IMG/VR virus record: IMGVR_UViG_2778261534_000005
Source: a virus
Taxonomy: Duplodnaviria; Heunggongvirae; Uroviricota; Caudoviricetes
Direction: 5' to 3' (one strand)
Length of the DNA: 7,663 bases
Shown here: piece after piece, positions 1-7,277 of the stretch
Layout of the letters: each line of letters starts with the position of its first letter
How positions within the stretch are numbered: position 1 is the first letter of the stretch
The notes under the pieces: model-generated
The model's input: only the letters and a program-made list of their open reading frames with translations
Told to the model about the DNA's origin: nothing
Database searches by the model: none
Program-made: the position numbers and the translations under genes

Positions 1-30
1 CAAGCCATAGGGAGGTGTAGAGAAACCGTT

Positions 31-72
31 AAGGTGTCTGTACAGTTACATCTTAAACAACCATCACAGTGA
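31..72. repeat. Copy A of a degenerate dispersed repeat (aaggtg ... agttacatcttaa ... acagtga)
   Basis: The 13-mer agttacatcttaa at 44..56 recurs exactly at 319..331. Both copies are preceded by aaggtg (31..36 and 313..318) and followed by acagtga (66..72 and 331..337). Copy A carries short insertions relative to copy B. Confidence 0.55.
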
Positions 73-312
73 TGTCAAATAGTTCTTTTAAGAAGGGAGG
101 GTTCTTTCTCATGTATCACCCTCTCTTCCCGTTAAGTAAGCTACACAGACCTAGAGAACATGCTCTGTAACACCTTCACAAACATTGACTAAGGTCAACT
201 TCATAAACTCAGAGTTAAGTTACCTTGAAAGATTTTACCAAGAAACTACACAGGTGTTATTTAGTCTGACTGTGAAGGGATATTTAACGGGAGAGAAAGT
301 AACGATATACCG

Positions 313-337
313 AAGGTGAGTTACATCTTAACAGTGA
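313..337. repeat. Copy B of the same degenerate dispersed repeat
   Basis: Same motif order as copy A (aaggtg, agttacatcttaa, acagtga). Flanking sequence is also loosely alignable: gttaagtaag occurs at 131..140 and 451..460, and aagaag-gaggg-like runs follow both copies. Confidence 0.55.
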
Positions 338-411
338 CTGTAAGAGATACCTGAAAAGATACTTAACAGAACTACCAAGAAGAGAGGGAACGATAAGACC
401 AGAGGTAGTGA

Positions 412-424
412 CCTGTTAAACAGG
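412..424. repeat. 13-bp palindrome CCTGTT-A-AACAGG
   Basis: 6-bp arms are exact reverse complements around a single central base, inside the repeat-rich noncoding block. Confidence 0.5.
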
Positions 425-845
425 CTGTTTCAAAGTCTCTTAAGAAATCTGTTAAGTAAGGGCTATGTGACCAATATTACCATTTTGTCAATGCTTTTGT
501 CTTTGACCTAAATCAATAAAATGTATCGTTTGATATGCTTTTAAACAAAATGGCTAAAAAATCTTTTTAGAGGGGCGCTTCGCTTGTGTCACCAATATAT
601 TCTTCCCTGTCTAAGAGGGAAGTTACAGGGACATTTCAAAGCCCTCAATAGACAAACCGAGGAACACGGGAAACCGAGGGAAGAAAAATCTATTGTGATT
701 GCCTTGAACAAGGTCTGTAAAGGTCGTTTAAGGGGTCGGTTAAGAAAGGAGCTTCCCTCTCTGGGGTTATCGCTCTTCTCTCGCTTAGTGGATTGATTAG
801 GGGTTGTGTTATACAAGCCCAACTAAGAAGACCTCTGAAGTTTCC

Positions 846-1035
846 CTGTGAAGAAGCTGAACAGCTATTATATATGGCTAATTACAACTAATTGAAAAAT
901 AAGCATTTTTAGAAGTTACTGTTAAGGTTACAGAGTTGTCTGTGAAGAGACTTGTCAGTTCTCTATATATGGCTAATTACAACTTATTGAAAAATAAGAA
1001 CTTTTAGAAGTTACTGTCAGAGAGGTGAATACTTG
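846..1035. repeat. Imperfect tandem duplication of a ~94-bp unit (846..939 and 940..~1035) with a near-identical 54-bp core
   Basis: Both units start with ctgtgaaga. The cores at 869..922 and 964..1017 (tatatatggctaattacaac-N-attgaaaaataag...ttttagaagttactgt) differ at only about 3 positions; the flanks are more diverged. Confidence 0.8.
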
Positions 1036-1098
1036 ATAGATACAGCTTTCCGGTTCTGTCAAGCTATTTTTTCATAGATAGCACAAAATGCTAAAGAT

Positions 1099-1128
1099 AC
1101 CCCTATACCATCACGTACAGGGGGTTTT
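1099..1128 (-). terminator. Putative hairpin terminator for the leftward small-protein transcript, possibly bidirectional
   Basis: Stem 1100..1108 pairs with 1115..1123 (9 bp; one G-U wobble in the minus-strand RNA, which is an A-C mismatch on plus), loop 1109..1114. It sits 14 nt downstream of the minus-strand stop at 1138..1140 and is followed on the minus strand by a U-rich but interrupted tail; on the plus strand TTTT (1125..1128) follows. Confidence 0.35.
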
Positions 1129-1137
1129 GGAGGGATT

Positions 1138-1326
1138 TTAACGAGGGTCTGTATGGTTGTCTTCACGGCCTCTGTCCTTGAGGTCAAACGACCATTCACG
1201 ACCAAACAACCGAAACACGATAAACACCCTGACGATGAAATAGCGAAGTAGTAGGCCTGCAATCAGCCCAACACCTCCACCAGCCCATACATCAGGTGAC
1301 CCCAGTTCAGGAGGGAGATTTACCAT
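1138..1326 (-). CDS. Small membrane protein, 62 aa, one predicted transmembrane helix; function unknown
   Basis: ORF-track product MVNLPPELGSPDVWAGGGVGLIAGLLLRYFIVRVFIVFRLFG... has a hydrophobic core followed by a charged tail. GAAGG Shine-Dalgarno about 8 nt upstream of the ATG on the minus strand; extended -10 promoter ~110 nt upstream; hairpin after the stop. Local GC is higher than in the flanking noncoding DNA. Confidence 0.4.
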   Translation of the reverse strand: MVNLPPELGSPDVWAGGGVGLIAGLLLRYFIVRVFIVFRLFGREWSFDLKDRGREDNHTDPR

Positions 1327-1440
1327 TCAATGTACCTTCTGTGTGCAATGCAAAAAACATGTGACCATTCTCGATAGTTGATTCGGTTTATCGAATAAAC
1401 CTCATAGCCACGCTTCATATTTTCCCTCTCCCATAAACCC

Positions 1441-1470
1441 ATTATACCATAAATGTTAATAAATTGTTAA
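1441..1470 (-). promoter_or_regulatory. Leftward sigma70-type promoter with an extended -10 (TGnTATAAT)
   Basis: The minus strand reads TTAACA (plus 1470..1465), an 18-nt spacer, then TGGTATAAT (plus 1449..1441). The -10 hexamer is a perfect TATAAT with the TG extension. Confidence 0.5.
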
Positions 1471-1477
1471 AAAATAC

Positions 1478-1506
1478 TTGACATTAGTCTTTGAAACTGC
1501 TAGTAT
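1478..1506 (+). promoter_or_regulatory. Rightward sigma70-type promoter for the operon starting at 1559
   Basis: TTGACA at 1478..1483, 17-nt spacer, TAGTAT at 1501..1506, with an AT-rich tract upstream. It lies back-to-back with the leftward promoter; the two -35 elements are about 8 bp apart. Confidence 0.5.
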
Positions 1507-1558
1507 TGTATATATAGTTAACAGGAAATTAACAAACACTAAGAGGGTCAGAATATGA

Positions 1559-5099: not shown

Positions 5100-7277
5100 A
5101 TGAGCAAATTCACAGTTGATAGTTTTATCGTTGAGCTAGGCTTCAGCGAGAACGTTATTAAGGGCTTGCAAAGAGTTGAAAAGGCAGCTTTGCAGTCAGC
5201 ACAAAGAATTGAAAAGAACCTAAATAAAGGTTTCAGGATTAATACAAAGCAGCTTGATAGTAATTTAACGACTTCTTTAGGGCAACTTGAAAGGAAGTTT
5301 AATAAGACCTTTGACAAGATTGAACAGAGAGCAAGAAACACAAAAGTTTTCCGTTTCACAAGTCAGGTTAATGACGCTATTAATCCTCCAAAACAACCAA
5401 GACAGCCACGAATTAGCGGAAACAGAGCAATCACAGCAGCTTATTCAGCGAATATGAGCAAGCTAAAAGGCTTTGACCCTATTTTGCAGAAATACATCAA
5501 ATCTCAGTTTTACGGGCTATCTGCTAAAGCTGGGTCAATGGATAATTCAAAATTCAATGAGAAGCTGGCTCAGTTAAACACTTCAGTCAGAGAAGCAATT
5601 GCTAAAGCCAGAGGTCATACATCCACCAGCATTAACAATACAAGCGACGCATTTAATAATCTTGCAAGCAATGCGATTAAATTATCTGGTGCATTTTACT
5701 CTGTGATGGGTGCTCTTAACGCTTACAAGGCCATTATGAATGCAGGTCTTAAACGAGATTCCGCACAGAGAGCCGCTAAGTTTGTACTTGGTGATAAAGC
5801 ATCTGAAGCTGAAACATTTATCAGGGGACTGGCTGACAAGACAGGTCTTAATATCTCTGAAGGGCTATCAAGCTACGCTAAGTTTGCAGCAGGTGCTCAG
5901 GGTTCTATGTCACAGGAACAGACACAGGAGCTATTTGGTAATGCAACGGCTATGAGTCGCTTAATGGGGCTTTCTAACGACGAGCTAAACGGCATTCTGA
6001 AAGCATTTGAGCAGATGGCGAGCAAGGGCAAGATTCAAGCTGAAGAGCTTCGTGGGCAGTTAGGTGACCGTATGGCTGGTGCATTTAAGCTATTCGCTGA
6101 AGCATTGGGTATGACTGCTACAGAGCTTGATAAAGCGATGAAAGACGGGAAGATTTTAAGTAGTGATACTCTCCCTAAAGTCGCTAAACAGATGGGCTTG
6201 ATGATTGATAAAGCGGGTGGTTGGGCTGAAGTCGCTAAGAGCACTCAGACAGCTTTAGGTAAGTTAGCAAACAACTGGGATGACACGATGGTGAAAATCT
6301 TCTCAGGTTCACAGGATGAGCTAAATGGCTTCTTATCCAGCCTGAGTAACCTGCTTAGTGAAATGGGTATGAGTTCTTCTATCGCTGGTGATGCTATCGG
6401 TGGACTTATCGACATGCTTAAAGCTGGTGTAGATGATATCCGTATCTTTAACAATCACATTGAAGGCTGGATTTTACAGACTAAGAAGTTCTATTACAGC
6501 CTTGATGACACTAAACGAAAACTACTTGATGAAGTCGGTGATGGTTTTATCAATTTTGTCAAAGGTCTTGCTATAGCGTTATCTGCAAAGACGCTATTCA
6601 GTGCTACTACAGGGGTTATGAACCTGACAAGAGCAATCACAACGTTAGGTACAAGAGCTAATCAGGTGGCTGGTCAGGTAGCTACTGGTAAAGGTGGTGG
6701 AAAACTGAAAGGTGTAGCTGGTGGTGTAGGTAGTGCTCTTGCAATTGGTTATGCTGATGACGGTTATGAAACAGCGTTAGCATTAGCTTCAATGATTCCA
6801 CAAATCAGAGGTGTCACTCTTGGTTTATATGCATTGAAGAAAGCACTGGATTTTATGAATCAGGAAGTAGTCAAAAACGCTAATATGCATCCATCTGGGG
6901 TAGGTGTGGGTAGTGACTTTAATCCTGTGTATTCTGGTGACCCTAATAAACCGAATGTGATTAACGAAGGATGGAGTAGAATTTTTAGTTCAATGGGTGA
7001 ATTGTTTAACAATGCCACAATGAATATTGCAAGATTCAATCATCCAGAATTGATTACCATGAAACAAGATGCATCATTAACGAGCACTGACATCCAAAAT
7101 CTAAGAGATGAAATTAGTGCTTTGAGTAAACGTATTCAGGAGCCAGTGAAAGTTTCACTTGGTGGTGAAGTTGCCATTAAACCAGATGAAACCAGCTTTA
7201 TGACCTTTAGCAGTAATATCTACGACCAATATGCAGAAGCTACGTTATTAAGTTCATCATTCCCAGAAGATGATTGA
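5100..7277 (+). CDS. Phage tail tape measure protein, 725 aa
   Basis: AAGAGGTGA ribosome-binding site 8 nt upstream. Residues ~291..366 (nt ~5970..6197; LSNDELNGILKAFEQMASKGKIQAEELRGQLGDRMAGAFKLFAEALGMTATELDKAMKDGKILSSDTLPKVAKQMG) match the conserved tape measure domain pattern. Long Ala/Gly/Leu-rich helical-looking protein with a Gly-rich segment at residues ~526..549. Confidence 0.85.
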   Translation: MSKFTVDSFIVELGFSENVIKGLQRVEKAALQSAQRIEKNLNKGFRINTKQLDSNLTTSLGQLERKFNKTFDKIEQRARNTKVFRFTSQVNDAINPPKQPRQPRISGNRAITAAYSANMSKLKGFDPILQKYIKSQFYGLSAKAGSMDNSKFNEKLAQLNTSVREAIAKARGHTSTSINNTSDAFNNLASNAIKLSGAFYSVMGALNAYKAIMNAGLKRDSAQRAAKFVLGDKASEAETFIRGLADKTGLNISEGLSSYAKFAAGAQGSMSQEQTQELFGNATAMSRLMGLSNDELNGILKAFEQMASKGKIQAEELRGQLGDRMAGAFKLFAEALGMTATELDKAMKDGKILSSDTLPKVAKQMGLMIDKAGGWAEVAKSTQTALGKLANNWDDTMVKIFSGSQDELNGFLSSLSNLLSEMGMSSSIAGDAIGGLIDMLKAGVDDIRIFNNHIEGWILQTKKFYYSLDDTKRKLLDEVGDGFINFVKGLAIALSAKTLFSATTGVMNLTRAITTLGTRANQVAGQVATGKGGGKLKGVAGGVGSALAIGYADDGYETALALASMIPQIRGVTLGLYALKKALDFMNQEVVKNANMHPSGVGVGSDFNPVYSGDPNKPNVINEGWSRIFSSMGELFNNATMNIARFNHPELITMKQDASLTSTDIQNLRDEISALSKRIQEPVKVSLGGEVAIKPDETSFMTFSSNIYDQYAEATLLSSSFPEDD

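What the first reader, a model, noticed from the sequence alone, without database searches (positions are those of the whole stretch)
1..1060. A kilobase of repeat-rich DNA with no convincing ORF in an otherwise densely coded genome
Phage genomes are usually densely coding, yet this block has only short overlapping ORFs that lack ATG starts or ribosome-binding sites. It is built from degenerate repeats on several scales: a duplicated unit (31..72 versus 313..337; gttaagtaag at 131..140 and 451..460), a ~94-bp tandem duplication (846..1035), a 13-bp palindrome (412..424) and purine-rich GAGGGA-like motifs (~95, ~384, ~615, ~676). Such architecture fits a replication origin with iterons, a terminal-repeat or packaging region, or a structured noncoding RNA locus. 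The sequence alone cannot distinguish these.
Basis: partly seen in the sequence, partly recalled or inferred. Interest (0 to 1): 0.65.

Follow-up and report, generated by a model that had tools for sequence, protein, structure and literature searches.

The report
Control region of a satellite-like island
The repeat-rich kilobase is genuine non-coding DNA, but it is not part of a free phage genome: it is the conserved control region of an 11-kb mobile island found in about a tenth of E. coli genomes, and that island shares short DNA signals and two tail genes with Felix O1-type phages, so it may be an undescribed kind of phage parasite.

Summary
Window 1-1075 has no credible ORF, is richer in short repeats than shuffles, and carries a 95-bp tandem duplication. 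The window is a whole 7.6-kb contig of a bacterial assembly. Its sequence lies on the chromosome of 545 of 5426 complete E. coli genomes, inside an ~11.2-kb island that a large serine recombinase inserts into wrbA or yecE. Metagenome contigs also show the excised circular form. The island encodes a tape-measure protein, a Dit-like protein and orphan small genes, but no recognisable replicase or terminase. The finding is the right two-thirds of a ~1.9-kb non-coding region kept in more than 40 variants. It contains near-invariant blocks (461-586, 981-1120), paralogous hairpin modules, and a patch (368-435) about 80-87% identical to DNA inside the terminal repeat of Felixounavirus. Just upstream of the window lie further shared patches and a hairpin plus pentamer array. 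It is also a hotspot for inserted genes. My best reading, at moderate confidence, is a cis-acting replication, packaging and regulatory region of a candidate satellite of Felix O1-like phages. No experiment supports this yet.

The parts
1..6 (+). Last units of an (NNACC)n pentamer array. The array and the hairpin before it lie upstream of the contig end.
   Evidence: The window is the whole contig NMHU01000142.1. Relatives continue upstream with a hairpin (loop ATTTTTAACGTGGCTA) followed by 10-13 NNACC units that end at window 1-6. The module is 82% identical over 90 nt to a repeated intergenic module of Felixounavirus VpaE1.
14..60 (+). Copy 1 of a short duplicated unit (AAGGTG...AGTTACATCTTAA)
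   Evidence: The exact 13-mer at 44-56 recurs at 319-331. Window 14-45 weakly resembles SP22 6679-6710, which lies in the non-coding leader after the phage terminal repeat (E 0.03).
86..134 (+). Hairpin module 1: GA-rich arm 90-101 and CT-rich arm 119-130, flanked by TTAAG words
   Evidence: Folds at -16.7 kcal/mol, z = -3.0. Hairpin potential is kept in 21 distinct variants with G-U pairs on the plus strand only. The 5' arm hardly varies, so covariation is weak. A mini-ORF inside it is not conserved in frame.
313..337 (+). Copy 2 of the short duplicated unit
368..435 (+). 'Core' patch shared with Felixounavirus. Contains the stem ACTACC/GGTAGT (371-376 / 404-409) and the palindrome at 412-424.
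   Evidence: 80-87% identical over 52-69 nt to E. coli Felixounaviruses SP22, KEP1 and REP5-7 (E 4e-6). The matching phage DNA lies inside the terminal repeat (SP22 locus 6001-6069, within the repeat at 5753-6332). The patch is not conserved in every island variant: it has diverged in L012 and in MS 196-1.
461..586 (+). Block I: near-invariant AT-rich block ending in GAGGGG-N8-TTG
   Evidence: Majority-base fraction is 0.94-1.0 across 30 variants, higher than in the neighbouring genes. The value at 499-528 is inflated because the metagenome relatives were fetched with that 30-mer. No sigma-70 promoter match. In variants that carry the methylase cassette, the GAGGGG/TTG at 570-586 sits just before the methylase reading frame. 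A use as its ribosome-binding site and start codon is my inference.
592..623 (+). Insertion point used by accessory genes in relatives
   Evidence: About 750 nt encoding a Dam-type N6-adenine methyltransferase with an HTH domain is inserted here in at least 8 relatives. One relative has a 506-aa ORF after Block I.
602..622 (+). Short hairpin CTTCCCT / AGGGAAG
738..800 (+). Hairpin module 2, a paralogue of module 1 (arms 746-752 / 772-778)
   Evidence: In four relatives this position holds a copy of the module-1 type sequence. Three pairs show compensatory changes among 23 variants.
869..1057 (+). 95-bp tandem duplication. Each unit holds TTATTGAAAAATAAG..TTTTAGAAGTTACTGT, which resembles block C upstream of the window.
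   Evidence: TRF period 95, 2.0 copies. Relatives carry one or two copies, seen as I-to-T distances of about 457 or about 555. The second copy and what follows it (981-1120) are near-invariant.
1027..1072 (+). Plus-strand terminator-like hairpin (1032-1040 / 1055-1063) followed by a T run
   Evidence: -16.2 kcal/mol, z = -2.5. Conserved in 28 variants. The loop is too long for the consensus scan. Function is inferred.
1100..1123 (-). Terminator of the small minus-strand gene; right limit of the non-coding region
1138..1326 (-). 62-aa hydrophobic protein gene
   Evidence: Called in the source record and conserved in relatives.
1376..1405 (+). Operator-like motif TAGTTGATTCGGTT..AAACCTCATAG with the palindrome GGTTTAT-CGA-ATAAACC (1385-1401)
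   Evidence: The motif occurs three times in the island, all in the same orientation.
1441..1518 (.). Divergent sigma-70-type promoters for the small minus-strand gene and for the plus-strand operon (184-aa gene through tape measure)
   Evidence: TTGACA-17-TAGTAT (plus strand, 1478-1506) and TTAACA-18-TATAAT (minus strand, 1470-1441), each matching 10-11 of 12 positions.

Best explanation
Window 1-1075 is the larger part of a ~1.9-kb conserved non-coding control region of an ~11.2-kb integrative island of Escherichia.

Shown:
- The island is inserted by a large serine recombinase into the 5' end of wrbA, or into yecE.
- It also occurs as a precisely excised circle or concatemer.
- Its recognisable genes are a tape-measure protein and a Dit-like tail protein whose nearest cultured relatives are in Felix O1-like myophages.
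- It has no recognisable replicase, terminase or capsid gene.
- The non-coding region is a mosaic of short cis elements. Some are shared with non-coding DNA of Felixounavirus: the core at 368-435 lies inside the phage terminal repeat, and, just upstream of the window, blocks A-B-C span the right boundary of that repeat and a hairpin-plus-pentamer module matches one repeated near the phage replication genes.

Inferred: these elements are the sites through which proteins of a helper Felix O1-like phage replicate and package the excised island. The invariant blocks and the duplicated promoter-like and terminator units set up short regulatory transcripts. The variable stretches between modules serve as landing pads for accessory genes.
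For: Context:
- The window is a whole contig of assembly GCA_002512005.1.
- 545 of 5426 complete E. coli genomes carry the sequence, always on the chromosome.
- The island lies between ymdF and wrbA in two genomes and inside yecE in another.
- attL and attR share the core GTGCTTT, and the island restores a wrbA start codon.
- attP junctions occur in three metagenome contigs. One is an 11,233-nt contig with a 55-nt end overlap, which indicates a circle. Another is a 23,009-nt contig with a 667-nt exact terminal repeat, equal to 2 x 11,171 nt.

Genes:
- Tape measure protein 30-34% identical to Ounavirinae tape measures and of similar length. A Dit-like gene follows it, the same position that an unannotated gene holds in phage VpaE1.
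- The other ORFs have no family hit in Pfam, PHROGs, NCBIfam or PADLOC.

Non-coding homology:
- Core patch, 80-87% identical.
- Phage terminal repeat proven in the records: SeKF_63 1-613 equals 89778-90390. This agrees with the published 608-bp and 581-bp repeats (PMC4837284, PMC8303462).
- Blocks A-B-C are collinear in phages and islands.
- The pattern TTTTGCAAAGGGG-N20-25-TACNNANCAG hits only 10 loci among 2.9 million viral contigs. Six are Ounavirinae and four are this island.
- Hairpin-plus-pentamer module, 82% identical over 90 nt.

The non-coding patches are far more similar than the proteins, as expected for sites that must be read by another genome's proteins.

Conservation: more than 40 variants that differ by up to about 20% in DNA keep the region non-coding and keep blocks 461-586 and 981-1120 nearly invariant.
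Against: - The homology to the phage genome-end region is only patches of 26-69 nt. The island does not carry a full copy of the terminal repeat or a recognisable left boundary.
- The core is not conserved in all island variants.
- The order of the core relative to blocks A-B-C differs between phage and island.
- The invariant blocks inside the window have no phage counterpart.
- The function of the hairpin-plus-pentamer module is unknown even in the phage.
- No data show induction, replication or packaging by any phage.
- The shared elements could be ancestral regulatory sites kept for the island's own use.
- Contig ends cluster in the region but not at identical nucleotides, so they do not define physical ends.
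Confidence: 0.45

Rival explanations
1. Autonomous origin. The region is the island's own replication origin. The invariant AT-rich block (461-586) would be the unwinding element, and the pentamer array and degenerate TTAAGAAGG-type words would be initiator binding sites. One of the orphan island proteins would serve it after excision, with no helper needed.
For: - AT-rich invariant block flanked by repeated words with strand bias.
- A contiguous (NNACC)n array abuts window position 1.
- Excised circular forms assemble at about 15x coverage as stand-alone contigs.
- The homologous module in the phage sits beside the ligase and polymerase genes.
Against: - No regular iterons of 17-22 bp lie within 1-1060. 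The 12-mer word is only weakly enriched and resembles a ribosome-binding site.
- No Rep, primase or helicase family is detected in any island ORF.
- No DnaA-box cluster was noticed on reading the sequence; this was not searched formally.
Confidence: 0.2
2. Regulatory RNA locus. The region is transcribed rightward into short structured RNAs. Promoter-like units occur in block C and in each 95-bp repeat, hairpin modules lie at 86-134 and 738-800, and a terminator-like hairpin lies at 1027-1072. These RNAs would control maintenance or induction of the island.
For: - A conserved plus-strand terminator-like hairpin lies at 1027-1072, and a similar one follows block C.
- Hairpin potential is conserved, with G-U pairs on the plus strand only.
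- The GAAGTTACTGT motif is shared by block C and both 95-bp units.
- The blocks are more conserved than the adjacent genes.
Against: - No Rfam family matches the window or the whole control region.
- No sigma-70 promoter match lies upstream of the candidate RNAs.
- The TTTATAAAAATTTT motif is not a recurrent phage promoter.
- Covariation is weak because the stem arms hardly vary.
- The folding z-scores are modest.
Confidence: 0.2
3. Decayed cargo. The kilobase is mostly leftover DNA from accessory genes that were inserted and then lost, and has no function of its own.
For: - Relatives carry a methyltransferase gene at 592/623, an HNH-AP2 gene upstream, or a 506-aa ORF.
- The window keeps GAGGGG-N8-TTG at 570-586, followed by a meaningless 70-aa ORF.
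- The stretches at 1-360 and 640-980 are only 70-85% conserved.
Against: - About twenty variants have no ORF here at all, yet keep the same length and module order.
- Blocks 461-586 and 981-1120 are more conserved than the coding genes.
- Patches are shared with distantly related phages whose proteins are only about 30% identical.
Confidence: 0.1
4. Direct terminal repeat of an ~88-kb virulent Felix O1-like phage genome. This was my own first reading and the reader's terminal-repeat option taken literally.
For: The tape measure is nearest to Ounavirinae, the core patch lies inside the Felixounavirus terminal repeat, and window position 1 is a contig end.
Against: The sequence lies in an 11-kb island with attL and attR in E. 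coli chromosomes. Host genes lie about 1.4 kb to the left of the window and about 2.2 kb to the right of its end. The complete excised unit is 11.2 kb.
Confidence: 0.02

Closest known systems
Non-coding genome-end region of Felixounavirus (Felix O1, wV8, UAB_Phi87, SeKF_63): a ~580-610-bp direct terminal repeat plus flanking non-coding DNA, about 1.65 kb in all
   Same: - Long non-coding stretch rich in strand-biased (T)GTTAAG(AAG)-type words.
- Shared core patch and collinear blocks A-B-C.
- Ends at a terminator of a gene transcribed towards it.
   Different: - The similarity is confined to patches of 26-69 nt.
- The order of the core and the A-B-C blocks differs.
- The island is 11 kb and integrated, and its packaged ends, if any, are unknown.
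- The window's invariant blocks have no phage counterpart.
PLE of Vibrio cholerae, the satellite of the virulent myophage ICP1 (comparison from my own knowledge)
   Same: - Small chromosomal island integrated by a large serine recombinase.
- Precise excision to a circle.
- A sizeable non-coding region.
- The presumptive helper would be a virulent myophage.
- No capsid or terminase genes of its own.
   Different: - PLE is about 18 kb and encodes its own replication initiator RepA with a defined iteron origin. Nothing comparable is detectable here.
- PLE has no tape-measure or Dit genes.
- There is no sequence similarity.
- Helper dependence is untested here.
Left-end non-coding region of phage T7: terminal repeat, arrays of short CCTAAAG-type repeats, minor promoter/origin, early promoters (from my own knowledge)
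   Same: About a kilobase without genes next to a short terminal repeat, built from degenerate short direct repeats and followed by strong early promoters.
   Different: No sequence relation. In T7 the roles of the parts are mapped experimentally. Here none is.
P4-like, PICI and cfPICI satellites of E. coli
   Same: Integrative islands of about 10-15 kb in E. coli that depend on helper-phage structural genes and carry packaging-site mimics.
   Different: Those use tyrosine integrases and have hallmark genes (P4 alpha, sid, psu, delta; PICI alpA, pri-rep, terS; cfPICI capsid genes). None of these is found here. None of those satellites carries a tape-measure gene.

Membership tests
Direct terminal repeat / packaging region of a Felix O1-like phage | The same sequence is present at both physical ends of virion DNA | not testable with these tools
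   No reads or virion DNA are available. Contig ends cluster in the region but at different nucleotides.
Direct terminal repeat / packaging region of a Felix O1-like phage | Sequence homology to the proven repeat and its boundaries | tested here: inconclusive
   The core (368-435) matches DNA inside the repeat, and blocks A-B-C match the right boundary. These are short patches only, no left boundary was found, and the order differs.
Direct terminal repeat / packaging region of a Felix O1-like phage | Lies in a phage genome of about 86-90 kb | tested here: not met
   It lies in an 11.2-kb integrated island.
Iteron-type replication origin | Three or more regularly spaced direct repeats of about 17-22 bp | tested here: not met
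   The repeat finder and TRF give only two-copy families and the 95-bp duplication within 1-1060. The pentamer array lies outside the window.
Iteron-type replication origin | Adjacent AT-rich unwinding element | tested here: met
   An invariant AT-rich block lies within 461-586.
Iteron-type replication origin | Cognate initiator gene nearby | tested here: not met
   No Rep, primase or helicase family is detected in any island ORF. Orphan ORFs remain.
Known structured RNA family (Rfam 15) or tRNA | Covariance-model or ARAGORN match | tested here: not met
   No Rfam match at E up to 1 in the window or in the whole control region, and no tRNA.
Phage satellite (general) | Integrative island with precise excision to a circle | tested here: met
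   attL and attR with core GTGCTTT, two integration sites, and attP junctions in three metagenome contigs including a circular 11,178-nt unit.
Phage satellite (general) | Lacks its own capsid, terminase and replication genes but carries helper-related cis sites | tested here: inconclusive
   No such genes are detected. Short non-coding patches are shared with Felixounavirus. Whether phage proteins recognise them is unknown.
Phage satellite (general) | Helper-dependent induction, replication and packaging | not testable with these tools
   This needs infection experiments. The only hint is co-occurrence of an island contig and three Felixounavirus-like contigs in metagenome 3300045988.
PLE family | Large serine recombinase integrase | tested here: met
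   Recombinase of about 500-547 aa at the right end, with a weak XisF/CcrC-type match.
PLE family | RepA initiator with an iteron origin, and homology to PLE genes | tested here: not met
   No such families are detected.
Invertible DNA switch (Hin/Gin-type invertase with flanking inverted sites) | Small serine recombinase adjacent to a segment found in both orientations | tested here: not met
   A 182-aa resolvase-type gene lies to the left in some variants. That cassette is replaced or absent in others. All aligned relatives are collinear with the window.

The most novel reading that the evidence does not exclude
The island is the first member of a new family of E. coli phage satellites that parasitise virulent Felix O1-like myophages. 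Its 1.9-kb non-coding region would be a compact set of helper-mimicking sites (terminal-repeat boundary, core, hairpin-pentamer module) that let helper proteins replicate and package the excised 11.2-kb circle. Packaging might take about eight units per head: 8 x 11.18 kb = 89.4 kb, which is the helper genome size. The satellite would supply its own tape measure and Dit proteins.
Probability: 0.3. Interest if true: 0.85.

Novelty: new variant of a known kind. Interest (0 to 1): 0.62.

Why it matters
About one complete E. coli genome in ten carries this island, and nobody appears to have described it. The paper searches found nothing that links satellites with Felix O1-type phages. If the non-coding region is where a helper phage is hijacked, three things follow. 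First, E. coli would have a counterpart of the Vibrio PLE-ICP1 system. Second, it would act on Felix O1-like phages, which are used for typing and therapy. Third, it would give a small, sequence-defined set of cis elements for finding out how these phages recognise their own ends and origins, which is still unknown. Even on the modest reading, the case shows that a "gene desert in a phage" was really the control region of a mobile island.

Tried and rejected
- Megablast of 1-1100 against 50,697 phage records found no match. The plasmid collection gave no match either.
- Rfam and tRNA scans found nothing.
- My long-held working model, an ~88-kb virulent Felix O1-like phage with the window at its terminal repeat, was abandoned once the E. 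coli genome search showed a chromosomal 11-kb island.
- Contig ends as a proxy for physical ends: two contigs start within about 20 nt of window position 1 and three start in block A. The ends are never at the same nucleotide. The break at position 1 is better explained by the low-complexity pentamer array.
- The two E. albertii contigs that both carry Block I are not two copies of a terminal repeat. They are 76-86% identical, so they come from two different islands.
- The UAB_Phi87 and PC79-13 records did not help to place the terminal repeat. The first is opened elsewhere, and the second has only a 127-nt assembly overlap.
- An iteron-like 12-mer (TTAAGAAGGGAG) is only weakly enriched in the window (17 matches against 8.8 expected by chance) and not enriched in phage SP22, and it resembles a ribosome-binding site.
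- TTTATAAAAATTTT as a recurrent phage promoter: it occurs exactly once in the first 45 kb of VpaE1.
- Mini-ORFs inside the hairpin modules: the reading frame is not conserved.
- Inversion by the small recombinase: the cassette is replaced between variants, not inverted.
- One general literature search returned nothing relevant.
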